64,000 nucleotides of DNA from Azolla caroliniana (taxonomy: Eukaryota; Plantae; Polypodiophyta). The notes under the pieces were generated by a model, which was not told where the DNA came from, made no database searches, and saw nothing but the letters and a program-made list of their open reading frames with translations. The position numbers were made by a program, and so were the translations under genes. Positions 5,747 through 62,295 of this stretch are shown in pieces; within the stretch, counting starts at the first letter, position 1; every line of letters starts with the position of its first letter. The DNA lies in the NCBI GenBank assembly GCA_043228905.1, contig JBHGNT010000003.1, positions 4,402,001-4,466,000 of the forward strand. The letters are read 5' to 3'.

Positions 5747-7296
5747 AGTCAGTTTGAGCAAGGCGAGGGAAGTGGAACGTTTGTTCCTACTTGCTATATT
5801 TGCCGTCAAACTGGTCATTATGCTAATCAGTGCCCTGCTAAATGAAAAGGATCGGCGGTTAATATGGTTATATTGGAAGTACAACAAGTAACCACTAGAA
5901 GCAAAAGTAAACAATCTGAGTGGGAGATTTAGGAAGTAGTCCGGAAAGCAGCCAAGGAATGGATAGAGGAAGCAAATAAAAATAATGTAAACCGGATGCT
6001 CCAAGATAATGAAATTAACCAAGCTACTGAAGTACCAGGAGTGATTGTTGTACAAGAATAAGAGGAAGCTTGGAAGCTATTGGAAGATTGCCAAGTCTCA
6101 TTACCACTGACCGGATTACTTAAGTTGGTCCCTAGATTTACCGAAAAAGTGGCGACATTGATTGCCCAAAAGGGGTCAGAACGAGTATCGGTACACTATA
6201 GTCAGCCGAGCACCAACCCTTCAATCATGGATGAGCAAAATCCATCAATTAAAGTAATAATTCAGGTTCAGGAAATCGAAAATACGATTATCGATGGGGG
6301 CTCAGGAGTGAATGTCATTAATAAAACCACCTGTGATAGGTTGGGAATTACTAAATGGGAAGCTTGCCCATTTTGGCTCAGAATGGCGGATACCACTACG
6401 GTACGACCAATTGGTTTACTCCACCAATTAGAGGTGGTATTGGGTGGTCATAGTTTTCTAATATCGGCAGTAATACTTCATTTGGAAGCTCCTGGTGCAT
6501 ATCCTTTGTTATTAGGGTGATCGTTGTTAAAGACTGCTAGTTCATCAAGCAGAATTGGAATCAGAATCAACTAACATTCAGAAAAGGCAAAACGAAAATC
6601 CGGGTTTCAACACAGAACAAGGTTGCGACAAGTAAACAGTGTTTGCCTGTGTATGCTGAGTCCGTCAATATGATGGAAGGATTAGACGAGGTCAAAGAAA
6701 ATAGTATTTTGATGATAATCCAAAAATCATTCCTTTGTTCGAAGTAGATATTTTACAAGCCTTGACCCCATATGTGGATTTCTAGGAGGAATTGCCAATA
6801 GATGAGCAAGCAATGAAGGAAATACGACTCTAGCAAGAAGCTACCGATAGAGAGATGAAGGTGTCCCAACGAGTTCAAGCTTCAACATTGGAGGAAATAA
6901 ATTTGGCAGAAGAAGATGGGGACAATGAGTTGAAAACAGTACTTATTGCTAAGGATATGATAGAAGTAGAGAAACAAAGGTTAACAACATTATTAAAGCA
7001 ATATAAGGATGTCTTTGCCTGGTCTTTTGAAGATATGAAGGGACTAGATCCAGCTTTTTGTCAACATCAAATCAACTTGCATAAGGATGCAAAGCCAGTT
7101 CAACAATGCAGGTACCGATTAAATCCTAATTATGCTATTAAAGTTAAAGAAGAAATAGATAAACTTTTGAAAGTAGGGTTTATTCGTCCGGTGAAAAAAT
7201 CGACATGGTTAAGTCCAATCGTCGTAGTTCCGAAAAAGAATGGAAAAATTCGAGTATGTGTCGACTACCGGAAACTAAATGCAGCTACCATTACGG

Positions 7297-8150
7297 TGTC
7301 GTAGTGTAATTCGCACACTACGTGAAAAACACATTTTTTGTCTCTCCGGATGGGACATGAAGAGTACCCGGTGAGAACCGGATGAAGAAGGCCGGTGAGA
7401 GTCGGTGAGAAGAGGACCGGTAAGGAAGACCTGGTAAGAACCGGATAAAGAAAATTGGTGAGAACCGGATGAAGAGACATATTTGTAAATAGAAGAAAGT
7501 ATAAAAATATATATTACATGCATAGGGCAAGATTCTAACCTTGCACCTCCATGTTTATAATGTAAAGCCTTACCATTACACTAACATATCATTAGTGTTA
7601 AAAAGAGAAACGTCCCACATAGAAATAAGTTCACGCAAGGATAAACTTTAGTTAGAAGAAAACACATGATAAAAGAAAAAGCTACACATGCACATGTAGC
7701 GTGCATGAACACCATAGTCGATAAAAACGCATCAAGTTAGAAAAAGTAGGATCAATTTAGAAAAAGCATGTTAGAGAAAGCATAGAGTCTATCTATAGAA
7801 AAAGCATGGATTGTTAAGACTCTCTCATCACTATATAAGGATGAGGAGCACAATGTAATGGGGGGGGGGGGGGTGTGTGAAATATTTGGGAAATTGGATA
7901 TATTTCCTAAAACACCAATAAATAATCTATACTTGTGGGATTCACAAGTTCTTTTATCTCTTTCTTTCAATCTAAATACATATTCTTATCTAAATATTGA
8001 TTAATAAAATACATTATACTTGTGGGATTTCCAAGTTTCTAATAATCTATTTATAATTAGGATCGTCTCAAATTCTTCCTCCTCCTAGTCCAAAACCCCA
8101 GTGGTTCCCACCTGACTCACGCAAACGATCTGGGGCTGAAAGGCACGACA
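7297..8150 (+). repeat. 5' LTR of C (854 bp)
   Basis: Direct repeat of 10128-10979, roughly 97-98% identical by eye. Confidence 0.97.
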
Positions 8151-8155
8151 CAATT

Positions 8156-8173
8156 TGGTGAACCCGACGTGAA
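8156..8173 (+). promoter_or_regulatory. Primer binding site of C, complementary to the tRNA-Trp 3' end
   Basis: TGGTGAACCCGACGTGAA is complementary to the plant tRNA-Trp end ...TTCACGTCGGGTTCACCA (recalled sequence). Confidence 0.85.
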
Positions 8174-8188
8174 GGCAGGTGGCAAGGA

Positions 8189-9510
8189 GATGGAGAATCA
8201 ACAAGAGGCGATGAGCATAATGATGATGATGATTGAGCGAATGCAACAAGAACAACGCACGATGTCGGAGATGAAGGCGGCTGTTGAGCGGCTTGTGCAA
8301 CAAAATGGGGAATTCAACGGAAAGGCTGTATCACGCTATCTATGTGACTATAAGGCGGAGATGATGCGATGTGAGATACCGGAAGGATTGCAAGTGATAT
8401 CCTTTGATCGGGTGGCCTCGGACAAGCTGCAAGAGAGCATATACGAGATACGACAACAGAACACAACGTGGGTGTCCTTTGAGAAAGCTCTATTAGAGAA
8501 GTATGACTACGAGAGATCGATAGGACGAGATCGATGTGAGTTTGACCAGTGGGTGGGATCGACAAAGACTCACTGAAGTGCAACACAAGCATTCCTAGAG
8601 TTCGAGCATCGTTTTGCTCGACTCTCGGCGTGGGAACAAAGATTTTTGGGGGAGGATAAAGTCCAAATGTTCGTAAGATCGATTGATCAAAAAGAAAGGA
8701 TGGACATCGGGATCCAACTTGAAGATGATGACGGTGCAAATGGCCTTACCGAGGATTGGGTTGAAGTCGAAAGAGTATGCCAAAGATATGATAAGAGGAA
8801 AAGAGTATGCCAAAGATATGATAAGAGGAAGACGAGAATATTGTTGGCAACAAAATGGCCTACAAGGGATGATCGATGTGGTTGATACGAAGGTTGAAGT
8901 ACGATTCGACGGTACCACGGGAGAGGGTGTGGAACAAGGTATCCTCTTGTCTTGCGAAAGAACAATGACCAAGGATAAGGTCGATGACTTGAGAGTGGCG
9001 AATGCTACTTCAAGAACGGAAGAAGGTTTCGGAATACAAGTATCTGAAACATCGGGTGAAAAAGGGTTAAGCATAATCGATGCTTGCATGATCGAGGGAG
9101 ATAAAGAGTGTGAGGCGGACTTGATTGAGGAGGTTGCCATGAAAGATGACATCGAATCGGAGGTGGCTATGGACGAATCAATGGCGAATGGCTATATGAA
9201 GACTTTCCCACCACTAGTTCGAGAGACTTCGGTAGTTGCGTTCGAAAGACAACTTGAGACCGAAGAGATGGAAGGTGGCGGAGAGAAAACAAAGTTTGAA
9301 TCCGATCCATACGACGGAGAGATAGCCAAGAAGGTGGCTATGGGTGAAACAACGGAGAACGATAATACCGAGGATTCCTGCCCACTAATCCTAGAGACTT
9401 CGGCGGTTGTGTCCGAGAAGCAACATAAGACCGGAGAGATGAGAGATGATGGAGAGGAAGGTAAAGTCGAAAGCCGATTCGGATGGAAGATGATCTGTCC
9501 GAAATTTTGA
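8189..9510 (+). pseudogene. Element C gag-like region followed by an acidic low-complexity extension
   Basis: VERLVQQNGEFNGKAVSRYL...TWVSFEKALLEKY aligns with G gag VDRTVETVGRFGGKNITNFL...TWAEFERALLTEY. ORF 8683-9510 is E/D-rich with internal duplications. Confidence 0.75.
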
Positions 9511-10127
9511 TCTAAACGAAAGTCGAACCTGTCGAATCTGGTGAACACGAAGAAAAGAAAGTCAACCCAGACCGAAACCAATGGGTCAAACCTGAACTGG
9601 AAGGGGGCCGACTCAATCGAAACCAATCAACCGAGTCTGATTCAGCCGAATACGAATCCGATCAGAAGCTGATCCAGCTGAAAACCGATCAGACAAGACC
9701 GATCCGGAAAGAAGGTAATCCGACTCAACTGGAGGTCGAAGCAATCAAGACCGGTGAAAACGAGGAAGACGCCAAACAGGCACACTATCATGGCCATGCT
9801 AAGAGTGAACGAAGAATATGGTGGATCGGATGGCGACAATGGTTCGGGCGGAAAGAATGGATATGCTCAAAATGGAGAGACAAAATCGACATAGCGAGCG
9901 AAATGAAGGGATTGCGAATAAAGGAGAAATACGAGAGCCGGAAACCGGTAACCGGGCGGAGCAAGCAACTGAAATCCGGAAACTGAACGGAGCCGGAAAC
10001 CGAGCGAAGCCGACAACCAAGCACGACCGGCGACGAAACCAACCGGGCAGAGACCGGACGGGGAAGACTAACAATCACCGACGGCTTCGGCACATACCGG
10101 AGGATGTGCGGGTTCAGAGGGGGCGAG

Positions 10128-10979
10128 TGTCGTAGTGTAATTCGCACACTACGTGAAAAACACATTTTTTGTCTCTCCGGATGGGACATGAAGAGTACTC
10201 GGTGAGAACCAGATGAAGAAGGTCGGTGAGAGTCGGTGAGAAGAGGACCGGTAAGGAAGACCCGGTAAGAACCGGATAAAGAAAACTGGTGAGAACCGGA
10301 TGAAGAGATATATTTGTAAATAGAAGAAAGTATAAAAATATATATTACATGCATAGGGCAAGATTCTAACCTTGCACCTCCATGTTTATAATGTAAAGCC
10401 TTACCATTACACTAACATATCATTAATGTTAAAAAGAGTAAACGTCCCACATAGAAAGGTAAGTTCACGCAAGGATAAACTTTAGTTAGAAGAAAACGCG
10501 TGATAAAAGAAAAAGCTACACATGCACATGTAGCGTGCATGAACACCATAGTCGATAAAAACGCATCAAGTTAGAAAAAGTAGGATCAATTTAGAAAAAG
10601 CATGTTAGAGAAAGCATAGAGTCTATCTATAGAAAAAGCATGGATTGTTAAGACTCTCTCATCACTATATAAGAATGAGGAGCACAATGTAATAGGGGGG
10701 GGTGTGAGAAATATTTGGGAAATTGGATATATTTCCTAAAACACCAATAAATAATCTATACTTGTGGGATTCACAAGTTCTTTTATCTCTTTCTTTCAAT
10801 CTAAATACATATTCTTATCTAAATATTGATTAATAAAATACATTATACTTGTGGGATTTCCAAGTTTCTAATAATCTATTTATAATTAGGATTGTCTCAA
10901 ATTCTTCCTCCTCCTAGTCCAAAACCCCAGTGGTTCCCACCCGACTCACGCAAACAATCTGGCGCCGAAAGGCACGACA
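10128..10979 (+). repeat. 3' LTR of C (852 bp)
   Basis: Preceded by PPT AGAGGGGGCGAG; repeat of the 5' LTR. Confidence 0.97.
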
Positions 10980-13789
10980 ACGGATGCGTTTCCATTACCA
11001 TTTACGGATGGTATATTGGATGCGGTAGCTGGCCATGAAGTATATAGTTTCCTAGATGGTTTTAGTGGTTATAATCAGGTTCGGATGAATCTAGAGGATC
11101 AAGAAAAGGCAACTTTTGTTACAGAATGGGGAGTGTTTGTAGCAGTAGTAATGATGTTTGGCTTGAAGACCGCTCCGACGACATTTGAAAGAGTGATATA
11201 GGAAATATTTGGGAATTACATTCTTGCCTTTATGCAAGTATTTTTGGATGATTTTGCTGTTTATAATCGGAAAACCGAACATTTTGAGTAGTTATGACTA
11301 TGCTTGGAGAAATGTCGGGAAGGACGGCTTAGTTTAAATCCGGCAAAATGTGCAGTCGAGGTCATTAGTGGCACATTATTAGGCCATATCGTCAGTCAGG
11401 AAGGAATTGCAGTGGACTTTGACAAGGTTAAGGCCATACTGGAAGCACCGGCACCCACAAATGCTAAAGCTCTGAGTCGGTTTTTGGGATAGATTAGATG
11501 GCACAGCCGAATGATAAGATATCTTGCGGATATCGCCATTCCCTTTCATACAGCAGTACACAAAGTTCCTTTTCAGTGGACAAGCGTGGAATAGGATGCA
11601 TTTGATTGTTTGAAGAAAATGTTGTCCAAAGTTCCAGTTGTTCAACCACCTAACTGGAATAAGCCATTCCATGTTTTTGTTGACGCATCGGACATTGCAA
11701 TCGGAAGTGCATTAATGCAGTTAACCGAACTGAATTGGTACATGCTATTTTACTATGCTAGTCGGAAACTCTCGACAGTAGAAAGAAATTACTCTACCAC
11801 TGAGAGGGAAGCTTTAGGAATGATATATAGTGTCAATAAATTTCAACACTATCTTTTGGGGAAAAAGTTTACATTTCATGTTGATCATTTGGCTCTTCTT
11901 TATTTGGTCTCGAAACAAGAGTTAACTGGCAAGTTAGTAAGATGGACTCTTCTACTCCAAGAATTCGAATTTGACATTTTACATCGGCCAGGAGTACAGG
12001 ATGTAGTGGCCGATTATCTCAGTCGATTGGAGTTAGGAGAAGAAGGCACAGGTGTCAAGGATGATTTTCCGGATGGTCAGCTTTTTCGAGTGGAAGCAAT
12101 AAATGCACAGGGTGTAAATGAAGAAAGTGAGGATGGTTGGATTTCAGAAATGACAATCTTTCTTACAACAGGGTTACCACCCAAACATCTATCGATAGAC
12201 GAAAGGAAAAGGTTGGCAGTACGGAGTCGTAATTTTTGTCTTTTAAACGACACTTTGTATCATAAAGGAGCAGATGGTATTTGGAGAAGAATAGTACGAC
12301 AATTCGAAAAATTGGTCATTCTTCGGGAATCGCATTATGGAATTGCAGGAGGACACTATGCTGTAGAAACCACAACAAGAAAAGTATGGAACAGTGGCTT
12401 ATGGTGGCCGACAATGATGAAGGATGCAGTCGAATATTGTCGGAAATGTGATTTATGCCAACGTATGGGACAAGCAACGGAAAGGGACCGAATGCCATTT
12501 CAACCTGTGTTACCTCTTGAACCTTTCTAGAAATGGGATTTGGATTTTGTAGGCCCATTCAAACTGGTAGCAATAAGAATAGGCAATAGATATATTATAG
12601 TGGCTACTGACTACTGTACGAAGTGGGTAGAAGCTAAAGCTCTTAGGGATAATACAATAGCTTCAACAACAAAATTTTTGTACAAAAGTATATGGTGTCG
12701 ATTCGGCTGCCCAATAAAATTAATGAGTGATCAAGGTACGCATTTCATTAACAAACTTGTTCATGAATTGTCTACCTACTATGTAGTGGTTCATAAGAAA
12801 AGCATGCCTTACTATCCACAAGCGAATGGATTGGCAGAGTCGACAAACATAACCCTACATACGATACTCAAGAAGATAGTAAATGAGAATCGTATGGACT
12901 GGGATCAAAGGTTGCATAGTGCTTTATGGGCATATCGCACGTCGTACAAAACATCTATTAAGTCAACACCTTTCCGAATGGCTTTTGGATTGGAGGCAGT
13001 TATGCCAATCGAATTCCAGATTCCGACTTTCCGAATATAAGCAACCGAAAAATTAAATGAACTTTAGTCGGAGCAAATTCGGAAAGAATCTTTATTGCTG
13101 TTAGAAGAGGACCGAATACAAGCTATGACAGCTTTGGAGCACAAGCAAAGACAAACGAAGGCATTTGTAAATCGACACCGACCAAAAACCGAATCTCAAT
13201 TCGGAATCGGGAAACCAGTACTAGTTTTCCAGACCAAGATGGGGGCGATGCTAGGAAAACTTCGGTATAGATGGATGTGACCAGTTTGGATCGTGAACAG
13301 TAAAAATGGTACGTATCAACTGGGAGCCCTATCAAGTGAGATTTTACTGAAATGGGTAAATGGTTTCCGGCTTAAACCATATCATGGACACATGCTGGAA
13401 AACCCATTCAAGGCCGAATAGCAAGAAAAGTAAAAAAAAAAAAAAAAAACTAACTATAGAATATTTTCTTGCCAAATCATAACTAACTATCACGAAGAGA
13501 TTCTTAGAGTAATTTCAAAAGGCTATAAGTAAAAGTAGTGGAGGTATATTACTATTAGTCATTATTACTATTTCTAGCCATCACTCCACTAGTACGCCTA
13601 GTCATTACAACATTAATAGTACTTTTATTCCCTAGGCATCAAGCAAAAAATTAATCTCTTAAAACCTATTTCTGTAATGACTGTTTCACCACAGAAGTAG
13701 AAACGCATTCGAGCTCACAGGTTTTCTGATTTTAGTCGCCATAGCCCACAACGTTTCTCACAGCCATTACTGAGTGACGATCTGTCAAT

Positions 13790-23104: not shown

Positions 23105-23455
23105 TGTCGAATATTGGTCTATAATGGCCGTATTCACATTGTATCTTGGACAAACTAGATTTAGTACAATTTTATAAATATGGCAAAGGGTAGTTGCCCT
23201 AGCCCGATTAGTATGTATTGGGCTTTGTAACCTAGTTTGTTTTTTGGGTTATTCAGTTTTGGTTGTTACCGCGATTCATTTATAACTTGGAGCTTGAATA
23301 AAACAATTACATCTTATGTGCCTCTCTATCTCTCCATCTCTGTTTCTCTCTCTCACACTGTCTATCTGATCTTGCTACTTCTACCTTGCTAACTAGGTGA
23401 TCTTTATCTCAAGGAGTTGTTTATGTTTTTGCTCGGACAGCCTCAGACTCCAACA
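23105..23455 (+). repeat. 5' LTR of E1
   Basis: TG...CA termini; diverged repeat of 35378-35693 (roughly 90% by eye). Confidence 0.92.
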
Positions 23456-26911: not shown

Positions 26912-27554
26912 TGTTGGGAGACAGGTCCCTCCGGATGGGAAGGGAGAAGAACAGCCGGATGGTGCAGACCCGGTGTGAACCGGATGAGGAGTACCCGGCT
27001 ACGGAGAGCCGGATGGTGCAGACCCGGTGTGAACCGGATGAGGAGTACCCGGCTACGGAGAGCCGGATGACGCAGACCCGGTGAGAACCGGAGGAAGAGA
27101 CATATTCGTAAATATGTTTCTAAGAGCCCATCATGGCTATATTTGTAAATAGCCGAAAAGTAATATTAGTATAAATATGACTTAGGGCAAATATGTGTAG
27201 CGAGTTGTTGTCATTTTCTTGTTGTGGCAAGAAGAAGAGAGAACATGTAATAGTGTACAGAGAGAGAGAGAGAAAGAAAGAGGTCGCTGCCTCTGTTGTA
27301 ACCACCGCCTGTGGCGAAGATCGTGAGTACGAGGTCGTTGCCTCCGTGAACTCACTGTTTTGTACATTCCAACATAGTGATAGTTTGCGGCCTGTGGGCT
27401 ACTGTGGTTTTTTCCCTCTTTGGGTTTTCCACGTAAACATTCTGTGTACCTTTTCTCTCCTTTGTGTCGCGTACATTTGTTCCTGTTTTTTGTGTATCAT
27501 TCTAAGCTCGGTTGTGGCCGAGCGTAGCGCATAAGGAGCGTTGAGTTCCCGTCA
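26912..27554 (+). repeat. 5' LTR of E2 (643 bp; two full 54-bp U3 repeats plus a partial one)
   Basis: TGTTGG...CCGTCA; repeat units start at 26953, 27007 and 27061. Confidence 0.96.
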
Positions 27555-33673: not shown

Positions 33674-34368
33674 TGTTGGGAGACAGGTCCCTCCGGATGG
33701 GAAGGGAGAAGAACAGCCGGATGGTGCAGACCCGGTGTGAACCGGATGAGGAGTACCCGGCTACGGACAGCCGGATGGTGCAGACCCGGTGTGGACCGGA
33801 TGAGGAGTACCCGGCTACGGAGAGCCGGATGGTGCAGACCCGGTGTGAACCGGATGAGGAGTACCTGGCTACAGAGAGCCAGATGATGAAGACCCGGTGA
33901 GAACCGGAGGAAGAGACATATTCGTAAATATGTTTCTGAGAGCCCATCGTGGCTATATTTGTAAATAGCTGAAAAGTCATATTAGTATAAATATGACTTA
34001 GGACAAATATGTGTAGCGAATTGTTGTCATTTTCTTGTTGGTGCAAGAAGAAGAGAGAACACGTAATAGTGTACAGAGAGAGAGAGAAAGAAAGAGGTCG
34101 CTGCCTCTGTTGTAACCGCCGCCTGTGGCGAAGATCGTGAGTACGAGGTCGTTGCCTCCGTGAACTCACTGTTTTGTACATTCCAACATAGTGATAGTTT
34201 GCTGCCTGTGGGCTGCCGTGGTTTTTTCCCTCTTTGGGTTTTCCACATAAACATTCTGTGTACCTTTTCTCTCCTTTGTGTCGCATACATTTGTTCCCGT
34301 TTTCTATGTATCATTCTAAGCTCGGTTGTGGCCGAGCGTAGCGCATAAGGAGCGTTGAGTTCCCGTCA
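33674..34368 (+). repeat. 3' LTR of E2 (695 bp; three full 54-bp repeats plus a partial one)
   Basis: Follows the PPT; repeat of the 5' LTR with one extra U3 unit. Confidence 0.96.
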
Positions 34369-39937: not shown

Positions 39938-40000
<63 letters not shown>

Positions 40001-40093: not shown

Positions 40094-40157
<64 letters not shown>

Positions 40158-40724: not shown

Positions 40725-43700
40725 TGTTGGGAAATCGGTCCCTCCGGATGGGATCCGATTATGAATGAAGTGGACCCGGAGAGAACCGGAAACCGGATCG
40801 GATAGACCCAGTGAGAACCGGATGAGAAGACATATTTGTAAATAAGCTTTTTGAGTAAGCCTATTGAGGCCATATTTGTAAATACCACTAAGTTCATATA
40901 AGTATAAATATGACTTAGGGCAATCACTTTGAGGTGTGGTTGTCATATTGTTGTATGTGTATAACTGATGTGTAGAGAGAACAGAGAGAGAGAGTGAGAG
41001 GAGATACAGAGCGATATACTCTGTTGTAAACGCCGCTTGGCGAAGAAACAGAGCTCAAGGTCGTTGCCTTCGAGTCTCTGATTGTACCTTTCTCATATCA
41101 TGATAGTTCGATTGTGTGTACGTGTGTTCACTCCCTTCTTCCCATTTCTGTGTTAGATTCTCGTTGGAAGTGTTCAAGACTTGGTTGTGGTCGAGCTATA
41201 CTTCGCGCTATTCTCCACAAATTGGTATTAGAGCGAACGACACAGGAAATGGAAGAATTGTTCGGCGGCATGTTCAAGCTCACCGGCTCCAACTACTCAG
41301 CGTGGAAGTCGAAGAGGAGGGATATGTTGGTGGTTAAAGATCTTTGGTTGCCGGTTCAGTTCGGGGACAAGAGACCGGACAAGATCGACTCCACAGTGTG
41401 GGAGGTGATGCACATGAAGACGACGACATACATCCGGTGCTTCATCAACATGAGCCTGTATAACAACTTCAATGAAGAAAGCAAGGCTCATGAACTCTGG
41501 GAGAAGGTCGACATTATGTTCGAGAACAAGAATGTTGTTAATCGGGTTTCGGTGTTCCGGAAGCTAGTGAGGCTCTGGTACCAGGACGGCTCCAATATGG
41601 CAGAGCACATGAATGCCTTCCAGGGATTGATCCACCAGGTAACCTCGTTGGAAGTACCTGTCGCCGATGAGGTACTCGCATTACTCCTGCTCGGTTCCCT
41701 CCCAGATAGGTGGGAGACGCTAGTTGTCACGTTGGGAAACGCCGGGCCGGAAGGAAAATAGTTGTCCCTAGCAAGAGTCAAGTCAAGCTTGCTAGATGAA
41801 GAAGCTTGCTGGAAGGATCGAGAAGTCCAGAACTGATCCGAAGGCCTTGGTCATGGAAGATGACCACAACAGGGGAAGAGGCCGGTATTGGAGTCCTTAA
41901 AACCGGGAAAAATCGGGGACGAGGTCGAAGTCAAGGGGGAGGCTCACGTGCTTCTATTGCGGGAAGCCGGGACACTTCCAGAAGAATTGTTGACACTTCC
42001 GGAAAGATAAAGAAATCGTAGAAGAGTTCAGACTGAAATGGTTCGGACTGGAGAGGCCCAAATTGGAAAGGAACGTCGGCAATCGTGACAAGTGAAGAAG
42101 AACTGATGCTCATTACCGAGGAGAATGAGTTAAATCTTGTCGGCGACGAGAGAACGTGGGTTGTCGATTTTGGAGCGTTGTTCTATCTGACACCGGACCG
42201 GAAATGCTTCTCATCCTACACAACCGAAGATCATGGTTGTGTCTGGATGGGGAATGAAGGTACATGCCGAATTGTCGTCATAGGAGATGTGTCGGTGATG
42301 ACATCAACCATATGCTAATTGCTGCTGAAGGATGTTTGACACGTTCCGGAGGTTCGACTAAACCTGATATCAACCGGTCGGCTAGATGATGAAGGCTACA
42401 CGGGTAGAATCCGGAACAGAGTTATGAAGTTCAACAAAGGAAGCCTGATTCTGGCACAAGCCCAAAAGATCAACACGCTATATCCGATGCATGCCCGGAT
42501 ATGCCGGGAAGAAGTGAACATAGCATCCGACACTGCCGGTGAGTTGTGGCACAAGAGGTTGTGTCACATGAGTGAGAAGGGGATGAAGAGACTTGCCGAA
42601 GACAATCTCAATCCGGTGAAGGACGTGCAACTTGAGAAGTGCACCGATTTCTTGGCCAGTAGGCAAAACCGAACCTCCTTCTGGTCAAGACCACCGATGA
42701 GATAGAATGCATCATTGGAGTTGGTGCATACCGATGTGTGTCAAGTGGACACGAAGTCACATGCCGGATCGCAATACTTCGTGATGTTCAGAGATGACCA
42801 TAGCCGGAAGCTATGGGTCTCACTGTTGAAGACGAAGGATCAAGTGTTATCCGTCTTCAAGGAACTCCACGCGAGAGTGGAAAGGGAAACTGGCCGGAAG
42901 CTGAAGGCAGTTCGGGCGGACAACAGAGGAGAATACCGGGGGCAGTTTGAGGAGTATTTCCGGTCGAAGGGAATCCGGCTCGAATTTACCGTGCCGAAGA
43001 CGCCGAAATTGAACGGGCTGGCTGAATGGATGAACCGGACCGTGATGGAGAGAGTCGGGAGCATGCTAGCACATGCAAAGTTACCCAAGACGTTTTGGGC
43101 TGAGGCGCTGACAACGACGACCTATGTGATAAACTGATCAGTACCCTTGGACGGAGACTCACCGTAGAAGGTATGGACCGGTAAGGTTGTGTCTTACCAG
43201 CATCTGAAGGTGTTTGGGTGTCTTGCCTACATGCATGTGGCAAAGGACAAAGGAGAAAAGCTGGATCCGAAGTCCCGGCCATGCATATTCCTTGGATATG
43301 GTGATGACGAGTTCAGTTACCGAGTGTGGGATCTGGTCGACAGGAAGGTGTTCCGGAGTCGAGACATAGTCTTCATGGAAGACAAGACCATTGCCGACTG
43401 GGAGTCGGAGACGAAGGTGATGAACTCCGGATCATCCAATGAAAACTGGCTTCAGGACACAAGGACTTACCCGGTTGAAAACCGGATGTTAGCCGGTAAC
43501 CAGATGACACTCGACGAACCGGCCGGATACGGACAAGAAATCGGACCGACTGAAGAAGCAGAAGAAGAAGAAGAAGAAGAAGAAGAATCGGATTCGGATT
43601 CGGAACAAATGGAGGACCCGGTAGTCAGAAACCAAGGATGGAGATACCCTCTCTGAGAGAGACGTGCCCCCCCGGAGATTTTCAGATGCAGAGCATGTGT

Positions 43701-53732: not shown

Positions 53733-55101
53733 TGTCGCGATAATACGACGAGGATACGTGAACTTTGAGGCAGGACCCCGGGGCCTCCGACCGGAAGATA
53801 TCAGATTCGTATGATTATATTAAACAATTAATGCAAAATGATAAAGATTCACAAATTTCATTAATAAAGGGAAAGAAAGATTACAATTAATCCCAAGATT
53901 GGGATTACAAAAATTTGCTAATGGAGACGACTAGAGTAATAGATTAGAAGAAATGAAATATGGATTTAATTAGAATATTAGGGTTTTTAGCTTCAATTCG
54001 AAAATTAGGGTTTTTGAGTTATATGGCTTTGATTAGGAAATTAGGGCTTATGACTTCTATAAGGAAATGTAGGGTTCTTGGCTTCGATAAGATAAGAGAG
54101 CTCCGAAGGAAAAGAAGAACAATATAATATGGAGAGAGCATATGAGTATAGAAAAAAAATGGAATTATATAAGGAGTTCCTCGTTGATCATATGCCTCCA
54201 CTTTTTGTTGCATGGCTTCTACATTTAGTTGCATAGCTTTTCTTTTCGTTGAATCTATTTTTAGTTGCATGGCTTTTTCTTTAGTTGCATGCGACCATCC
54301 ACTTGACCTTTACTTTAGTCTCTTTTTCCTTTCTTTAAATAGCCACATGATCCTTTTATCCGTTTGATTTGCGTCCAACCTTGTACGGTTGCCAGTTCCG
54401 CCCGATCGCCGAATCCCTCGCCGGCCGGTTCCGGTTACGGTTCTGGTTTGCTTGCCGGTTCTAGTTCCGGTTTTGCTTGCCGGCCGGTTCCGGTTTTGCT
54501 TGTCGGCCGGTTCCGGTTTTGCTTACCGGCCGGTTCCGGTTTGCTTACCGGTTGGTACCGGTTTTGCTTGCCGGTCGGTTTCCGGTTCCGGTTTGGCATA
54601 CCGGCCGGGTTCCGGATTTGCTTACCGGCCGGTTCCGGTTTGCATACCGGTTCCAGTTCTGGTTTTGCTTACCGGTCGGTTCCGGTTTTGCTTGCCGGCT
54701 GGTTTCCGGATTTGCTTACCAGACCCATTTTCCGGATTTGCTTACCAGCCGGTTTCCGGATTTGTTTACCAGCCGGTTTCCGGATTTAGGGAATCTTGCC
54801 ACCATCATCCATCAAGACAAAGTGGCCAAAGTGCTCTTAGAACAAATGAAAAATGAGGGAGCTCAAGGTGCTTATATAGCCAGGGCCTTAAGTTTCCTAT
54901 CTATGTAGGATAGTTCTAATTTTTCTATCTTCCCAAACTTTATTTTCACATAACTTGATATGTATTTCTCCATTTTGTATATAGTAAAATACATTTTGAA
55001 GCTCTTGAGTACATCCATCTTTCTATAGTAAGCTACTAATCTAATCTATAATAATTATTTCATTTTTTTTTTTTACATAGTGTGTGAAGATTCACATGAC
55101 A
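53733..55101 (-). repeat. 3' LTR of G (1369 bp)
   Basis: Direct repeat of 60849-62295; CCGG-rich minisatellite at ~54390-54790. Confidence 0.96.
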
Positions 55102-55168
55102 TTCGCCCCCACCAAACCTGCACATCCACTGGTATGTGCCAATTTTGGTGAGGATTCATTTTTGTTTA

Positions 55169-58100
55169 CTATACTTTTTCATCGATGCTTAAGACTGAAT
55201 CGTCAAAAGCTTCGAATCCAATTTCTAGTCTATCTCTTCTCTTGAAGATCTTGATTCTTTTACCGGCAATTGGCAAGGCAAGTGGTGTACCATCCAGTTC
55301 TACTAAATGATATGTTGCATTATCTTCCACTTTCTTCACCACATATGCCCCAAACCATCGTTGTGAGAATTTTCGAGCCGTACTATGTTGGTTATCTAGG
55401 CTGCTGTCATAGACTAGCACCCAATCTCCTTCAACGATTTTCCTTGGCCGAAGTCGATGTCGTTTATCGAAGTCTTTCTTGTTCTTTAGCCTTGCATTCT
55501 TTAGCCGCGCTTTAGCCACCTCTATATCTTCCAAATTCCGCTCTAATTGTCGAATCCTCAATGCTAGAAGATCTTCTCTAGTTATCTCATCTTGCCATGG
55601 CAATGCAAACCATGAAATAATACTTTGTTCTACAGGCATTATTGGCTTTTGTCCGAATATGAGCTCTGCCGGCATGTATCCCGTCACCGTGCTATGAGTA
55701 GTCCTGTCAGCCCATAGTGCAAATGGCAATAGACGCGGCCATTCTCCTATTTTCCCATGGCAAGCTTTCACTAGAGCCTTCACAATCGGTCCATGTCCAC
55801 GTTCCACCTTCCCATTTGCTTCCGGATTATACGCCATGGTAAGAGATAATTTGATTCCCATCCTCGAGAAGAATTCTCTAGCTTCATTGGCGTCCAACTC
55901 GCCTCTATCAGCCACTATCTTGCCGACACATCCATATCTGCAAATAACATCTTCAAGAAGGAATCGGCATACCGATGATGTCTCCTTAGTTCTTAATGCT
56001 CGCCCTTCAACTTGATTGGTAAGATCCTCTCTCGCGAGCACAAGATACTTCATCTGCCATCGTCCCATTGGCATCATCACTATGTCCACCATCCACTTGT
56101 AATGCATAGCCAATGGGTAAGTCGGATGAAGTCCATCTCGATGGCAAATATTCGAAAACATTTGACATTCCTTACATGTTTCCACATAAGCTGCTACATC
56201 TTTGTAGATGCCCGGCCACCAATATTTCTCCTTAAGCTTCACAAACATAGCCCATATTCCTCGATGGCCTGCAAAAACACTATCATGAAATTTGGACATT
56301 AGTTTTTGTTGGTCTTCTAGCTTGCAGACAACTCTCATCGGAGTCCCATTCTTCTTTTTTGCATGCCTCCAAAGAGCTCCATCCTTAAGGAAATACTTGT
56401 ATGCCTTCTTCCGAATTCGATGGAAGCCTTCCGTCGACCATGATTCATCTTTTTGGAGAGAACTCAAGTATTTCCCGATCTCCACGAATTCGCCTTCGTA
56501 GTCCTCTTCTATGTAAGTAGTCAACACCCGAGCATAGGAACTTGCAAAGAAATCCAAGCCAACATCATCTTCATCAGAATGTCGATCTTCTTCTCCGTCG
56601 TATCTCGCTCGTGATAGCATGTCTGCAACGACATTACGCTTCCCAGCTACATGACAGATCTCCGGGTTGAGTGATTTGATATATGCAATCCAACGCAACA
56701 TGGCAATATCCGGTGTATTACAACCAGATATCATACCCAAAATTGGTAGGCAATCTGTCTCAATTATGACTTCTGCTCCAATAAGGTAATCACAATCAGA
56801 TTTGATTGCCGAGACGATCCCCCATAGCTCCCTCTTCACTTGGGCATACCTTCTTTGCCTGTCACTTAACACTTTCGCGCCAAACCGAATTGCATATCGG
56901 TTGCAATCTTCATCTTCTTGGTTGATAACCCATCCAATTCCGATTGGACTAGTATCCACAGTCACGAAAATGGGTTTGCCGTATGAATAGTCCGCTTTCC
57001 GTAATGCAGGTGCCTCCATCAATAATTTCTTCAGCCTTCGGATGGCGATTGTATGCTCGCTCGTCCATTCGAACATCCGCTTCTTCTTTAGTAGACCATA
57101 TAATGGCTCAGCAATGTGGGCATAGTGTGGAATCCAAATATGATAAAACGTGCATGCTCCGAGGAACCTTCGAACCTCCGTTTGGGTTACACATTCTTCT
57201 TTCATGTCTTGGATTGCATTCACCTTGGATGGCGAAGGCTTCCGACCGTATGCTCCACACAAGTGACCTACCACTAGGATCTCTGGTTGCCTGAATGCGG
57301 ATTTTTCTCCCGAAAATGTCAAATTCGCATCTTCGAGCCTTTGGAGCACTTTCTCGCAATCTTTCATATGATCCATGACGAACTTTCTACATCCATCCTT
57401 ATCTTTTGATTCATCCTTCTCTTCATCCGAACATCCTTTTATCGGAATATCATCTAAGAATGGCATCGTGATATCCGGGATGCAATCCTTGAAGACCTTG
57501 TTCGTGGCATTCACCATATGAGCCACCGAGTTCGTTGCACCTTGAGGTAAGGTACACATCCGCACCAACCCGATTGGATTTCTCATGGTTGTAATGTCAC
57601 GACTGTCGACCACCAACTGGAATTGATCGTAGCCAGAGTAGAGATCGTCGATGGAGTAGATGGACCGGCCCGCAAACGCCTCGGCAAATTCATCCACACT
57701 CGGACCAATTCCAGCATTCCGAATTGTTACCTTGTTGACGGGTTGAAGATCTTGAATGAATCGCAAGGATCCATTCTTCTTTGGCACCGTGAACCACCTA
57801 TTAGAATAAGGAGCATTCGGTGGTTCTAGAATTCCCATCCTCACCTTCCTCTTTAAGAGCTCGATCAACTTCGGTAGGTGTGCTCTCGGAACCGGTATCG
57901 GTTTCAAATTCCAAGGCACATGCGGCACCGTGAAGATCACCATCGGTTCTACCGTCCTTGGATTAGCACACCCGATTTCTTGTGGGAAAAACGCGAAAGC
58001 CTTCCCATGTCTTTCAAGCATTCCACGAAACATCCGCTCCTCTTCAAGGAGGAGGAAATCCTCCCTTCCAACTCGTAGCTTTCCCTTCGTCTCTTCAGTG

Positions 58101-58624
58101 AAGATGTGACCAATTGTATTTGGGTTCCTTAAGCTTGGATCTTTTGCAACTTCCTTCATCTTTTGCCAACTATCTTCCGGTAGCGGAACTGCAACTGGCT
58201 TGATCTTCCTATCCACGGTTTTATATTTTGTGTTGACTTCGGCTTCCTCTATCAAGATGCCTTGATGATATTCATCGATGATAGTATACATGTTGACGGA
58301 GTTAACCGAAATCACATGTTGATGGTGAGGATAGCTCAAATCCACGACTTCCTCGATTTCACCGATGGTGTTGTTAAATGAGGCTTCCTCCAGAATATAT
58401 GACACGAATTCTTCTTCTTCGATTATGCTTTCTACTTTCAGCACCTCCTCGAAGTCTTGTATCTGACACTTTTCCTTCTTGTTGAGTAGTCTAAGTTTGC
58501 ATGCGCCGCCAGGTGTGACGCATGTTGCTTCTCCTTGCAATCCATGCACTTTGCTTCCTTGTGGGGACTTATGATTGCTCGGACTATTTGTGCCCCATGC
58601 TTCAATAGTCCGCTTTAAAAATCC
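55169..58624 (-). CDS. pol: G pol (RT, RNase H, integrase); open frame starting at the putative frameshift site
   Basis: 1126-aa ORF with FIQDLQPVN, FLDD, TVDTS, HHCC zinc finger, ADRGE and NGKVE motifs. The frame stays open upstream to 58624. Confidence 0.92.
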   Translation of the reverse strand, partial: GFLKRTIEAWGTNSPSNHKSPQGSKVHGLQGEATCVTPGGACKLRLLNKKEKCQIQDFEEVLKVESIIEEEEFVSYILEEASFNNTIGEIEEVVDLSYPHHQHVISVNSVNMYTIIDEYHQGILIEEAEVNTKYKTVDRKIKPVAVPLPEDSWQKMKEVAKDPSLRNPNTIGHIFTEETKGKLRVGREDFLLLEEERMFRGMLERHGKAFAFFPQEIGCANPRTVEPMVIFTVPHVPWNLKPIPVPRAHLPKLIELLKRKVRMGILEPPNAPYSNRWFTVPKKNGSLRFIQDLQPVNKVTIRNAGIGPSVDEFAEAFAGRSIYSIDDLYSGYDQFQLVVDSRDITTMRNPIGLVRMCTLPQGATNSVAHMVNATNKVFKDCIPDITMPFLDDIPIKGCSDEEKDESKDKDGCRKFVMDHMKDCEKVLQRLEDANLTFSGEKSAFRQPEILVVGHLCGAYGRKPSPSKVNAIQDMKEECVTQTEVRRFLGACTFYHIWIPHYAHIAEPLYGLLKKKRMFEWTSEHTIAIRRLKKLLMEAPALRKADYSYGKPIFVTVDTSPIGIGWVINQEDEDCNRYAIRFGAKVLSDRQRRYAQVKRELWGIVSAIKSDCDYLIGAEVIIETDCLPILGMISGCNTPDIAMLRWIAYIKSLNPEICHVAGKRNVVADMLSRARYDGEEDRHSDEDDVGLDFFASSYARVLTTYIEEDYEGEFVEIGKYLSSLQKDESWSTEGFHRIRKKAYKYFLKDGALWRHAKKKNGTPMRVVCKLEDQQKLMSKFHDSVFAGHRGIWAMFVKLKEKYWWPGIYKDVAAYVETCKECQMFSNICHRDGLHPTYPLAMHYKWMVDIVMMPMGRWQMKYLVLAREDLTNQVEGRALRTKETSSVCRFLLEDVICRYGCVGKIVADRGELDANEAREFFSRMGIKLSLTMAYNPEANGKVERGHGPIVKALVKACHGKIGEWPRLLPFALWADRTTHSTVTGYMPAELIFGQKPIMPVEQSIISWFALPWQDEITREDLLALRIRQLERNLEDIEVAKARLKNARLKNKKDFDKRHRLRPRKIVEGDWVLVYDSSLDNQHSTARKFSQRWFGAYVVKKVEDNATYHLVELDGTPLALPIAGKRIKIFKRRDRLEIGFEAFDDSVLSIDEKV
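58562..58624 (-). promoter_or_regulatory. Putative programmed -1 ribosomal frameshift signal (slippery heptamer plus pseudoknot)
   Basis: G GAT TTT TAA, 5-nt spacer, 9-bp stem CGGACTATT/AATAGTCCG, loop TGGGG complementary to downstream CCCCA. Pol is in the -1 frame. Confidence 0.8.
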
Positions 58625-60795
58625 AAGGATTCGCCTCCAAGGCTATCTCGGTTCCTTTTATGATTAGCTCGCACCGTCAGGAATTGAACGGATCTTTTAC
58701 TATCAAGACTCTTGACGTGCGCGAAGGCTGCTCCATTATCGAACACCTTGGTCTCCATCTAGGACGATGTTATATATGGTTGTCCTAGGATGACAGGATG
58801 TGAAGCCGAGTCTTGCACGAAGAAGTGTTGATCAATCTCTACATCCCCGATTGTGACTTTAACATTGGGACAACCTCCGTACAAGTCCTCTGTAGCCTTC
58901 GTCGCCACTCGAATCTTCCATCCGTGGTTTGTATTAATCGGCCATCTTCCTTTCTTGTAGAACTCGGTCGACATGAGGTTGATCTCTGAGCCATGGTCAA
59001 TCAAAGCGACCACAGTCTCTTTCTTCTCCCCGATCTTCACCGGTGTCTCCGTTGTCGCTCTTGCCCAATGAGGCCGCGAGTAATGGCTATCCGCCACCAC
59101 TTCTTCTTCTTCCTCCTCTTCTGATCTTGCCATGGTTATGGCACTTGTTTTCACCTCCTCTTCATCAGATTGTTGCCGCTTACTTTTAATAAGGTCCACG
59201 ATAGTATCATGGAACTCCTTCTTCGCGATCCCAAGTAGCTCTCTCAAGGTAAGGTCGACATGACTATCTAAAACCTTCTCCTCAAGAACCTTCCGCAAGT
59301 TAGTTGTTTGTTCTATGTCCGACCTTACCTTGTAAGTCGGTGCCGCTCGTTCTTTTCCTTTCTTCGTTGATTCTTCGACTTCCATTCGAGTAGGTTGGCT
59401 CGATCCACCGGGCTTCATGTTTGTTTCACCAATCTCTTTTCTTGGGATAGGTTGGGGTGGCCCTTCTTTCCCTCTGTTCCTCATGTTAGGTCGCTTTGAT
59501 GTGCCATCTTCTTCACCGGTTCTCTTCCTCTTCTCTTGGACAAGGGCTTCATAGGTGTCACACACAACCTCCGCAAAGCTTGTGTTTTCGTCGATTGGAT
59601 CTGACCATCCGGTTGCTCGTCGCACGTTTCGGTCAGCAAGTTTTAGATCCTCCGAATTGATTTTGCCTTTTTCTTCGCACTCAAAGACCGTTGGCCAAAA
59701 CCCAGCTCTTGGCTTCATCATTTTAAGATTCTCTTTTCCAACTCGTATCCCAGCCGAAGCGGCATAGTGCATAGCCTCCACATGCCTTGCATCTTCTTCT
59801 TCTACAATCTTTTTCAGCCCACCTCTTCCGAAGTTCACTCGTAGTGGCTTCCGGGTCTCGCTCGAGTGAATCATGTTGTCGTCCAAATAGACAACATTCT
59901 TGCGGATCGCATCTTGCAAGTCAGCACATTCCCTTCGTGAGTGTTCAAAGCTATCGCACCACACACATCTATACGCTTTTTTTCCCTTGGGCCCGCGTCG
60001 ACCTAAGTTGGCTAGCGATACCGCTTCAAACTTCTTGGAGAGCTCTTCGATTATAGACTCCTCCATTGCTTTCTTGTCGAAATTGTTGATCGGCTTACTA
60101 GGCTCAATCGTCGTAGGTGCCTTCTTCCACAATTGTGGATTCTCGACCTCAGCTTCCTCTTGCCATTGTCGCCGCTTATCAAAACGGTTGCAAGCCTTCT
60201 TCACTGCCACCTAGTCCGCTACCAAGCCATTTGGTTGTGTTTCGTCCTCCAAGAAACTGCCCAATTCTCGCCGATCTTTCGCATCCATTGCCTTTAGGAA
60301 TAGTAAGACTTTATCTCCGTCGAGAACTCGTTGCTCGACACTCGGAAGTCGGTTGTACTTATGGTCAAATTTGGCATAAATTCCCGATGCACACATATTC
60401 TTCCCTTTCTTCTCAATCCAATTCATTAACGTATGCCGAGTCATTCGCGATGCGTCTTCAAGCATGTATTCAGTGAGAAGAGCCCTTTCGAACTCCGCCC
60501 AAGTTGCATGCTCGTTCTGGATCTCCATCACGCGCTCACGGATCCCAGGTTCTACCACACGCTTAAAGCTTGAAATTTGTTTTGGATCATGTACATCTCT
60601 TTGTTGCATCTCGTTCCGGTAGGTAGCAAGGAAATTTGTGATGTTCTTCCCACCGAATCTTCCAACTGTCTCCACAGTTCGGTCAACAGCTTTGTCGACT
60701 AAAGCCTCCCGATCTCTCTCTTTCAGCATGAATTCGACGATGGACACCATCCCTTTGGTCAATTCTTGTCCTTGAGTTCCACTTGTTGAAGCCAT
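58615..60795 (-). pseudogene. gag: G gag-protease ORF (single frame, two in-frame TAG)
   Basis: ORFs 60211-60831 and 58759-60210 share a frame that continues to TAA at 58615. Knuckle CVWCDSFEHSRREC; protease ALIDHGSE...ILGQP. Confidence 0.85.
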
Positions 60796-60826
60796 CTTCG
60801 TACTTGATATCCTCCTACTGCCTCGT

Positions 60827-60844
60827 TTCACGTCGGGTTCACCA
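60827..60844 (-). promoter_or_regulatory. tRNA-Trp PBS of G
   Basis: TGGTGAACCCGACGTGAA, identical to the C PBS. Confidence 0.87.
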
Positions 60845-60848
60845 AAGA

Positions 60849-62295
60849 TGTCGCGATAATACGACGAGGATACGTGAACTTTGAGGCAGGACCCCGGGGC
60901 CTCCGACCGGAAGATATCAGATTCGTATGATTATATTAAGCAATTAATGCAAAATGATAAAGATTCACAAATTTCATTAATAAAGGGAAAGAAAGATTAC
61001 AATTAATCCCAAGATTGGGATTACAAAAATTTGCTAATGGAGATGACTAGAGTAATAGATTAGAAGAAATGAAATATGGATTTAATTAGAATATTAGGGT
61101 TTTTAGCTTCAATTCGAAAATTAGGGTTTTTTGAGTTATATGGCTTTGATTAGGAAATTAGGGTTTATGACTTCCGTAAGGAAACTTAGGGTTCTTGGCT
61201 TCGATAAGATAAGAGAGCTCCGAAGAAAAAGAAGAACAATATAATATGGAGAGAGCATATGAGTATAGAAAAAAACTGGAATTATATATGGAGTTCCTCG
61301 TTGATCATATGCCTCCACTTTTTGTTGCATGACTTCTACTTTTAGTTGCATAGCTTTTCTTTTTGTTGAATCTATTTTTAGTTGCATGGCTTTTTCTTTA
61401 GTTGCATGCGACCGTCCACTTGACCTTTACTTTAGTCTCTTTTTCCTTTCTTTAAATAGCCACATGATCCTTTTATCCGTTCGATTTGCGTCCAACCTTG
61501 TACGGTCGCCAGTTCCGACCGATCGCCGAATCCCTCGCCGGCCGGTTCCATTTTGCTTGTCGGCTGGTTCCGGTTACGGTTCCGGTTTGCTTGCCGGTTC
61601 CAGTTCCGGTTTTGCTTGCCGGCCGGTTCCGGTTTTGCTTGTCGGTCAATCCGGTTTGCTTGCCAGTTTCGGTTCCGGTTTTGCTTACCGGCCGGTTCCG
61701 GTTCTGGTTTTGCTTACCGGTCGGTACCGGTTTTGCTTGCTGGTCGGTTTTCGGTTCCGATTTTGCATACCGGCCGGTTTCTGGATTTGCTTACCGGCCG
61801 ATTCCAGTTTGCATACCGGTTCCGGTTCCGGTTTTGCTTGCCGGTCGGTTCTGGTTTTGCTTGCGGGTTCCGGTTCCAGTTTTTCTTGCCAGTTCCGGTT
61901 CCAATTTTGCATACCGACTGGTTTCCGAATTTGCTTACCGACCGGTTTCCAGATTTGTTTCCCGGCCGCTTTCCGGATTTAGGGAATTTGGCCACCATCA
62001 TCCATCAAGACAAAGTGGCCAAAGTGCTCTTAGAACAAATGAAAAATGAGGGAGCTCAAGTTGCTTATATAGCCAGGGCCTTAAGTTTCCTATCTATGTG
62101 GGATAGTTCTAATTTTTCTATCTTCCCAAACTTTATTTTCACATAACTTGATATGTATTTCTCCATTTTGTATATAGTAAAATACATTTTGAAGCTCTTG
62201 AGTACATCCATCTTTCTATAGTAAGCTACTAATCTAATCTATAATAATTATTTCATTATTATTTTTTTACATAGTGTGTGAAGATTCACACGACA
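60849..62295 (-). repeat. 5' LTR of G (1447 bp)
   Basis: TGTCG...CGACA termini; longer CCGG minisatellite at ~61505-61985. Confidence 0.96.

What the first reader, a model, noticed from the sequence alone, without database searches (positions are those of the whole stretch)
7343..7530. Gypsy-type LTR shares a U3 module with Copia LTRs (possible cross-superfamily enhancer capture)
Seen: C has Gypsy-lineage ends, a Trp PBS and a G-like gag. Yet its U3 contains GGTGAGAACCGGATGAAGAGACATATTTGTAAATA (7457-7491), matching Copia E2 at 27080-27114 (33/35) and Copia F at 40811-40844 (32/34). Flanking motifs CTCCGGATGGGA, GAGTACCCGG, short CCGG repeats and TAGGGCAA occur in the same order. The block is in both C LTRs, so it was replicated through retrotransposition. 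I did not see it in the G LTR. Inference: a promoter/enhancer cassette moved between superfamilies, for example by template switching in mixed particles, and may couple their expression.
Basis: partly seen in the sequence, partly recalled or inferred. Interest (0 to 1): 0.75.

Follow-up and report, generated by a model that had tools for sequence, protein, structure and literature searches.

The report
Gypsy LTR carrying a Copia piece
A Gypsy-type jumping gene of a plant carries, in both of its end repeats, a block of about 150 bases that matches the start of unrelated Copia-type elements and is absent from shorter relatives of its own family, so it likely captured part of a distant element's control region; whether this changes its activity is untested.

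Summary
Observation confirmed, with one boundary corrected. Element C (7297-10979) is a pol-less, Phygy-like Gypsy element: NCGN target duplication, Trp-type primer site, gag like G's and unlike Copia's. Both LTRs hold a CCGG-rich block collinear with the first 120-200 bases of Copia E, F and L001 LTRs. The match survives CCGG masking (0 of 150 shuffles reach it).

Contigs of four coded organisms show two forms. In the short form the Gypsy head joins 7487 through 32-33 other letters. The long form, like C, is bridged in 4 of 4 runs at a few percent of head depth. The clearly foreign part is therefore about 7339-7491, and TAGGGCAA lies outside it.

Best reading: a Copia U3 head replaced a short Gypsy U3 segment, likely at DNA level (nested insertion plus microhomology deletion, or cDNA-end capture), and reverse transcription then copied it to both LTRs. 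Template switching is not excluded. Enhancer function and coupled expression are untested, and the long form did not take over. Short forms also share motifs with Copia, so an older capture is possible. No earlier scan note on this was found, nor a paper in nine searches.

The parts
7293..7296 (+). Left 4-bp target-site duplication ACGG (NCGN type); right copy at 10980-10983. C sits inside the RT region of an older Gypsy element
   Evidence: host RT homology on both sides
7297..8150 (+). 5' LTR of element C (TGTC...GACA)
   Evidence: 17 substitutions to the 3' LTR in 849 columns, K2P 0.020
7297..7328 (+). Native Gypsy LTR head, shared by short and long forms; resembles the start of the G LTR
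   Evidence: 10089-10160 vs 55140-55069, 79%; depth 37,000-90,000 at 7305-7328 and joints from 7328
7329..7338 (+). 10-nt linker of uncertain origin: decayed Copia LTR end or diverged Gypsy segment
   Evidence: window copy matches Copia nt 3-12 at 0-1 of 10; most bridging depth reads TTG at 7329-7331, the letters of Copia nt 3-5 in register
7339..7491 (+). Copia-like U3 block: CTCCGGATGGGA, CCGG-based direct repeats, 35-bp core; copy in the 3' LTR at 10170-10322
7457..7491 (+). 35-bp core, 32-33 of 35 identical to E, F and L001
7487..7491 (+). AAATA microhomology at the right junction: short Gypsy forms rejoin at 7487, Copia-like contigs leave after 7491
   Evidence: tables 5, 5c, 7
7492..7530 (+). 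A/T-rich spacer and TAGGGCAA, to the right of the point where short forms rejoin; same 31-nt spacing from AAATA as in E and F (second box)
7832..7839 (+). C's own TATA-like box TATATAAG (function inferred from position)
8156..8172 (+). Primer-binding site, same as G's at 60844 (minus); read as tRNA-Trp from recall
8190..10123 (+). Single gag-like reading frame, broken in this copy by stops and frameshifts; no pol domains
   Evidence: P0121, 673 aa, aligns in pieces over 8190-10123
10116..10127 (+). Purine-rich tract before the 3' LTR, homologous to G's
10128..10979 (+). 3' LTR of C
26912..27190 (+). Head of Copia E 5' LTR: block starts at LTR nt 13, 54-bp tandem repeats, two TAAATA boxes, TATAAATA, TAGGGCAA; 3' LTR head from 33674
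40725..40923 (+). Head of Copia F 5' LTR, same layout with fewer repeats
53733..62295 (-). Element G, 8563 bp, Phygy-like comparator (TSD GCGT); lacks the block, has its own CCGG array downstream of its TATA-like box

Best explanation
Element C is a gag-only, Phygy-like Gypsy retrotransposon whose two LTRs carry a block matching the head of Copia LTRs, and the block likely came from a Copia element by a DNA-level event and was then likely spread by ordinary reverse transcription.

Steps. (1, shown) Short relatives run head - 32 or 33 other letters - AAATA; long forms like C have 158 nt there. (2, inferred) A Copia LTR end entered the U3 of a 3' LTR just behind the 32-nt head. Either a Copia inserted and was cut back by a deletion ending at the AAATA microhomology, or a linear Copia cDNA end patched a break. 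(3, established mechanism) Reverse transcription copies the 3' U3 into both LTRs. The head had to stay intact for integration, which would explain the position. (4, inferred) An autonomous partner with a near-identical gag start (P0026-like) supplies the enzymes. (5, inferred, untested) The block sits where LTR cis-regulatory repeats sit and would bring Copia factor-binding sites 340-490 nt upstream of C's own TATA-like box. As the minority form it looks tolerated rather than strongly favoured.
For: Homology beyond chance after masking, 0 of 150 shuffles in 6 of 6 tests. Collinear blocks from Copia nt 13-14 to the first TAAATA box.

Short forms: joints 7328/7329 to 7487 in X11 (1 contig, depth 38) and X12 (2 contigs, depth 1076 and 176); loose ends of like sequence before 7487 in X1, X4 and X11; a 7327-7502 joint in X1 and X4.

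Long forms: pieces bridging head and block with at least 31 letters each side in 4 of 4 runs. Pieces bridging block and downstream Gypsy LTR in X1 and X12 and X11.

Direction: the block is at the start of three Copia LTR types (E, F, L001), and E-F homology runs on beyond it (71.5% over 281 bp). Listed loose ends after 7491 are E-like or F-like in X1, X4 and X12. Depth at the left junction is 500-1,800 against 37,000-90,000 on the head. Relatives read G at 7339 and C at 7343, the Copia letters.

Route: homology begins within 13 nt of the Copia end, where Copia DNA can end but Copia RNA does not. Nested insertions with intact TSDs are in this window (C, E, G). A review calls recombination between unrelated cross-packaged RNAs rare (PMC6894440, section 9).

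Gypsy identity: tblastx to G gag 1.5e-39; 72 of 120 G-gag homologues hit by C, none by E gag.
Against: The Copia terminal TG is not seen at the junction, and the window's own 7329-7338 matches Copia nt 3-12 at only 0-1 of 10. By eye this linker also resembles the start of the short form's segment, so an end-coincident junction is suggestive only.

Short forms themselves resemble Copia: a GTAC core (GGAGTACCCG in X1 loose ends) and AAATA followed 31 nt later by TAGGGCAA, as in E and F. The short form could thus be derived from the long one, or an older capture came first.

The short-form joints rest on few contigs (3) with short sides of 28-32 letters at 80% likeness, and only 15 of 68 joints and 24 of 268 loose ends were shown. 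Depth of contigs is not copy number, and the head may be shared with other families.

No intermediate (a Copia or solo LTR inside a C-family LTR) was seen. E and F are not the direct donors: the middle of the block aligns poorly to them. Nothing tested here bears on function.
Confidence: 0.55

Rival explanations
1. Same Copia origin, but by a double template switch during reverse transcription in a particle holding both RNAs. Minus-strand synthesis would jump to Copia at AAATA, helped by the in-register TAGGGCAA already copied, and jump back near the start of U3.
For: A replacement with microhomology rather than a clean insertion. In-register AAATA-N31-TAGGGCAA in both partners. Template switching makes chimeric LTRs between related elements (PMC1950507 passages; PMC6894440 section 9).
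Against: Needs cross-superfamily co-packaging and two jumps. The in-register box is Copia's second box, whereas C carries the context of the first. A Copia RNA has no end at the start of U3.
Confidence: 0.2
2. One older, larger capture (Copia head through TAGGGCAA) founded the whole C-family U3. Short forms arose later by deletion of the CCGG repeats and decay, and long forms kept the ancestral state or re-captured it.
For: Short forms keep a GTAC core, a partial match left of AAATA and the exact 31-nt spacing to TAGGGCAA (compared by eye). A TATA-like TATAAAAA sits at 7500.
Against: The spacer is at chance identity to E and F (12-13 of 31, against 23 of 31 between E and F) while the adjoining core is 32-33 of 35. 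Two very different ages side by side fit a younger insert in native sequence better. TAGGGCAA also occurs in other LTR-like stretches.
Confidence: 0.13
3. Convergence: unrelated LTRs evolved the same host factor sites in a genome where CCGG is favoured.
For: CCGG is 2.0-fold over mononucleotide expectation outside LTRs. G built its own CCGG array and shares a 10-mer with the block. CGG/CCG repeats upstream of TATA are common in Sirevirus LTRs (PMC2829016).
Against: A 35-bp match at 94% with non-motif filler, a second collinear block, significance after masking and after trinucleotide-preserving shuffles, and sharp junctions against short relatives. G, with 36 CCGG, does not score above chance.
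Confidence: 0.05
4. Reverse direction or third-party source: the block went from a Gypsy lineage, or from a host sequence, into the Copia ancestor of E, F and L001.
For: C's core is as close to E, F and L001 (32-33 of 35) as they are to each other (30-32 of 35). No Copia outgroup head without the block was examined.
Against: The block is in 3 of 3 Copia heads seen, at the LTR start, and only in a minority form of the Gypsy family. G lacks it.
Confidence: 0.07

Closest known systems
Inter-element recombination and LTR swapping among LTR retrotransposons (PMC6894440, passages and section 9; PMC1950507, passages; PMC13570524, passages)
   Same: A chimeric LTR is made once and then replicated in both LTRs; modules are reshuffled among non-autonomous families.
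   Different: The passages read concern families or subfamilies and name no Copia-to-Gypsy case. Here donor and recipient belong to different superfamilies and only a U3 sub-segment is exchanged.
Soybean SNRE-S non-autonomous subfamily with a foreign solo LTR (Du et al. 2010; paper not held, known only from passages of PMC3701649)
   Same: A non-autonomous element carries foreign LTR sequence and keeps replicating.
   Different: There the foreign solo LTR lies in the internal part and the subfamily is strongly amplified. Here a partial head lies inside both LTRs and is the minority form. The donor's superfamily in soybean I could not check.
Phygy non-chromovirus Ty3/gypsy (Neumann et al. 2019, PMC6317226, passages and one supplement row)
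   Same: 4-bp NCGN TSD, Trp-type primer site; G has the size (8563 bp) and a DUF4100 gag with Physcomitrium homologues.
   Different: Phygy is defined by polyprotein trees from one moss; C has no pol and is 3683 bp.
TR-GAG elements (PMC4350172, abstract and passages)
   Same: Under 4 kb, LTRs, primer site, purine tract, one gag frame, no RT.
   Different: 4-bp rather than 5-bp TSD; the passages read describe no foreign LTR segment.
Sirevirus repeated motifs (PMC2829016 and PMC4728375, passages)
   Same: CGG/CCG-core repeats in the upstream half of a Copia LTR, ahead of a TATA box, proposed as cis-regulators and found to be siRNA hotspots.
   Different: The window's repeats are direct, not palindromic, and the elements were not shown to be Sireviruses.

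Membership tests
Phygy (for C) | 4-bp TSD of NCGN type | tested here: met
   ACGG/ACGG; G has GCGT/GCGT; criterion
Phygy (for C) | tRNA-Trp primer-binding site | tested here: inconclusive
   Site at 8156 is the same as G's. Its reading as Trp is recalled; no tRNA gene lies in the window to pair it with
Phygy (for C) | Placement in RT/RH/INT trees | not testable with these tools
   C has no pol; no reference Phygy pol set was held, and no tree was built for G
Phygy (for C) | Length 7.7-10 kb with full polyprotein | tested here: not met
   C is 3683 bp; G is 8563 bp. C is filed as Phygy-like, not as a member
Ty3/gypsy side rather than Ty1/copia (for C) | gag homologous to Gypsy gag and not to Copia gag | tested here: met
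   tblastx to G 1.5e-39; 72 of 120 G-gag homologues hit; best hit to E gag E 0.08 on the opposite strand
Ty1/copia (for E, F) | Domain order gag-protease region-integrase-RT and Copia-type Pfam domains | tested here: met
   E: Retrotran_gag_2, Pol_BBD, rve_3/SH3, RVT_2 in that order; F: Retrotran_gag_2 and RVT_2, 78% to E over 2.8 kb; E has a 5-bp TSD CTTGG
TR-GAG (for C) | Under 4 kb with LTRs, primer site, purine tract and no RT | tested here: met
TR-GAG (for C) | One open gag frame | tested here: inconclusive
   Broken in this copy; relative P0121 is one 673-aa frame that aligns across the internal region
TR-GAG (for C) | 5-bp TSD | tested here: not met
   4 bp. C works like a TR-GAG but is not filed as one
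Sirevirus repeated motif | Palindromic repeat unit | tested here: not met
   Direct tandem repeats of period 24-54 in C and E; an inverted arrangement appears only in some contigs (table 5c)
Sirevirus repeated motif | Host element is a Sirevirus (multiple PPTs, lineage tree) | not tested
   No lineage test was run on E or F
LTR enhancer | Raises or redirects transcription from the LTR promoter | not testable with these tools
   Needs reporter or allele-resolved expression data

The most novel reading that the evidence does not exclude
Copia and Gypsy families in this plant group exchange U3 regulatory DNA repeatedly. An ancient Copia capture left in-register motifs (GTAC, AAATA-N31-TAGGGCAA) across the whole Gypsy family. 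These later guided a second capture of the CCGG enhancer array, which puts a non-autonomous Gypsy under the same host factors, and the same small RNAs, as Copia.
Probability: 0.15. Interest if true: 0.72.

Novelty: new variant of a known kind. Interest (0 to 1): 0.46.

Why it matters
LTRs are treated as family-specific and are used to define families, and Copia and Gypsy are taken to be far too distant to exchange parts. A replicating Gypsy LTR with a Copia U3 head shows that candidate regulatory DNA can cross that line and persist in several related organisms. Long and short forms of the same LTR exist in nature, so the effect of the block on activation and silencing can be tested directly. 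If it proves neutral, the case is a tidy example of nested-insertion debris being carried along by reverse transcription.

Tried and rejected
No whole genome is held for this window, so no copy census or LTR tree was possible.

Expression: no RNA holder listed; this says nothing either way.

Collection scans: the core pattern found 1 metagenome contig (L001, a Copia-type LTR head). The head-plus-block pattern found 0 in viral contigs, and the head found 0 in prokaryote genomes.

Origin of the block from Copia coding sequence: a 15-nt match to E's integrase region scored 30, in the range of other internal regions (21-32, 7 regions); rejected as chance.

Origin from G's CCGG array: longest shared word 10 nt, whole-LTR score at chance; rejected.

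Excess LTR-to-LTR change inside the block: 6 of 17 substitutions in 163 of 849 columns, p 0.09; not significant.

Folding of the block gave no shared structure worth reporting (no shuffle control run).

TAGGGCAA as part of the clearly foreign block: rejected.

Literature: searches returned no Copia-to-Gypsy U3 capture in their listings; 4 of the 9 returned nothing at all, and the terms were narrow. Du et al. 2010 is not held. PMC5718144 held the searched term only in a reference title.

Earlier scan notes: look-ups were empty; 24 and 57 returned only notes on another topic.

Full report
SETTING. The window is a nest of plant LTR retrotransposons (Pfam; self-BLAST). No whole genome is held. Named homologues of G's gag come from Adiantum, Riccia and Physcomitrium, and the closest are unnamed metagenome proteins up to 96% identical. 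The host is likely a seed-free land plant; I did not identify it.

ELEMENT C. It runs 7297-10979 (3683 bp) with LTRs 7297-8150 and 10128-10979 (K2P 0.020) and a 4-bp duplication ACGG, inside the RT region of an older Gypsy. Its primer site is the same as G's (the Trp reading is recalled). The first 650 internal bases match G's gag start (tblastx 1.5e-39) and 72 of 120 G-gag homologues, while E's gag hits none of them. A relative, P0121, is one 673-aa frame that aligns in pieces across 8190-10123 with no Pfam hit, so the family is gag-only. P0026 starts almost like C and goes on to DUF4100 and a weak protease match; it is a candidate autonomous partner (inference). Neumann et al. list 4-bp NCGN TSDs and 81% Trp primer sites for Phygy (PMC6317226, supplement row).

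THE MATCH. The 35-mer is 33/35 to E, 32/35 ungapped to F (32/34 from 40811) and 33/35 to L001, an F-like Copia head from a metagenome contig. E, F and L001 are 30-32/35 to each other. Whole-LTR alignment scores are C-E 74 (48 masked) and C-F 58 (50 masked), against shuffle maxima of 28-33, with 0 of 150 in all 6 tests; C-G and C-D are at chance. A second block, GTC.CTCCGGATGGGA, aligns to Copia nt 14-29, and local alignments are collinear from there to the first TAAATA box. The second refutation, loss of significance after masking, is not met either.

RELATIVES. The run search listed 17 holders in 8 studies, none with half of the words. I laid contigs of X1, X3, X4, X11 on 7200-8300 and of X1, X4, X11, X12 on 7297-7530 (four organism labels, three studies), at 80% likeness. 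The tool showed only part of each table: 15 of 68 joints, 24 of 268 loose ends and 32 of 2547 pieces.

Short forms: joints from 7328 or 7329 to 7487 occur in X11 (1 contig) and X12 (2 contigs, depths 1076 and 176; 33 and 32 A/T-rich letters between). Loose ends of like sequence lie before 7487 in X1, X4 and X11, and a 7327-7502 joint is listed for X1 and X4. Long forms: pieces bridging head and block are listed for 4 of 4 runs (depth up to 437 in X11), and pieces bridging block and downstream LTR for X1, X12 and X11. Summed depth is 37,000-90,000 on the head, 500-1,800 at 7337-7352 and 20,000-213,000 on the core. The listed loose ends after 7491 read like E or F in X1, X4 and X12. Depth is not copy number and the head may be shared with other families, so 'minority form' is a rough reading. 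Depth of 22,000-45,000 at 7377-7400 in X1 and X4, far above the junction, hints at a donor family closer than E or F (inference).

BOUNDARIES. On the right, short forms rejoin at 7487 and Copia leaves after 7491, so AAATA is a 5-nt microhomology. On the left, bridging contigs often read G at 7339 and C at 7343, which are the Copia letters at nt 13 and 17, and most of their depth reads TTG at 7329-7331, in register with Copia nt 3-5. The window's own copy matches Copia nt 3-12 at only 0-1 of 10, and by eye the linker also resembles the start of the short segment. Homology thus starts at Copia nt 13 at the latest and perhaps at nt 2-3.

AGAINST A SIMPLE STORY. Short forms carry a GTAC core (GGAGTACCCG in X1) and the same AAATA-N31-TAGGGCAA spacing as E and F's second box. 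These may be convergent promoter motifs that guided the exchange, or relics of an older capture. I could not separate the two.

MECHANISM. Shown: two forms of one Gypsy LTR, differing by a Copia-homologous block between microhomology-like junctions, present in both LTRs. Established: reverse transcription copies U3 into both LTRs (PMC1950507, passages). Inferred: direction Copia to Gypsy (about 0.85 that the block is of Copia origin) and a DNA-level route (about 0.55 overall). The route rests on three points: the left boundary lies near the Copia end; nested insertions are common here; and a review regards recombination of unrelated cross-packaged RNAs as rare (PMC6894440, section 9). Template switching keeps about 0.2.

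FUNCTION. Inferred from position only. In E and F the repeats lie upstream of TATAAATA, as Sirevirus CGG/CCG repeats do (PMC2829016, passages), which in maize are siRNA hotspots (PMC4728375, passages). In C the block lies 340-490 nt upstream of its own TATA-like box and excludes the Copia TATA. Four of the six LTR-to-LTR changes in the block hit CCGG sites and all six are transitions, as expected for methylated DNA. The long form has replicated and persisted but has not displaced the short one.

WHAT IS KNOWN. Family-level recombination, modular non-autonomous elements (PMC13570524, passages), a foreign solo LTR inside soybean SNRE-S (second-hand, PMC3701649 passages) and gag-only elements (PMC4350172, passages) are described. 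Nine searches listed no Copia-to-Gypsy U3 capture. The library lacks most subscription papers, including Du et al. 2010, and repeat-library notes or unseen supplements may record such cases. Five look-ups of earlier scan notes showed none on this topic.

VERDICT. A real cross-superfamily chimeric LTR, a new variant of known LTR mosaicism. Origin well supported, route moderately, function untested. Interest 0.46.

Noticed in passing
window 54420-54790 and 61534-61980 (G LTRs, minus strand): G has its own array of 34 CCGG sites downstream of its TATA-like box, unrelated by alignment to the Copia block. CCGG arrays thus occur in LTRs of separate families here.
   Followed up: partly
whole window outside the listed LTRs: CCGG is 2.0-fold and CCG 1.24-fold over mononucleotide expectation, while CAG/CTG are 0.73. 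This would fit a methylation system that erodes CWG more than CCG, as recalled for mosses.
   Followed up: no
contigs laid on 7390-7470 (tables 5, 5c): Several contigs join 7403 to 7464-7468 through a few letters, making an inverted repeat with CCGGTG...CACCGG arms. The same hexamers form the maize Ji/Opie palindrome in the opposite order. Whether these contigs are Copia or Gypsy is unknown.
   Followed up: no
window 27221-30336: Three tandem copies of a 1038-bp unit (3' half of E's LTR, primer site, gag start), over 99.7% identical: a very recent duplication or an assembly artefact.
   Followed up: no
window 26953-27099 and 33713-33915: E's two LTRs differ by one 54-bp repeat unit (2.7 against 3.8 copies), so the array changed after insertion.
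   Followed up: no
window 8190-10123; P0121, P0124: The gag-only family keeps a long acidic-then-basic extension with no Pfam match, conserved between copies at 45-75%.
   Followed up: partly
window 23105-23434 and 35378-35693: Two copies (86%) of another LTR-like stretch that holds TAGGGCAA on the minus strand in one copy (23201), followed in part by TC/CT-rich repeats.
   Followed up: no
window 39845-40174: A 156-bp tandem duplication with two (AG)28-29 runs and an (AC)10 run, probably LTR or leader sequence on the minus strand.
   Followed up: no
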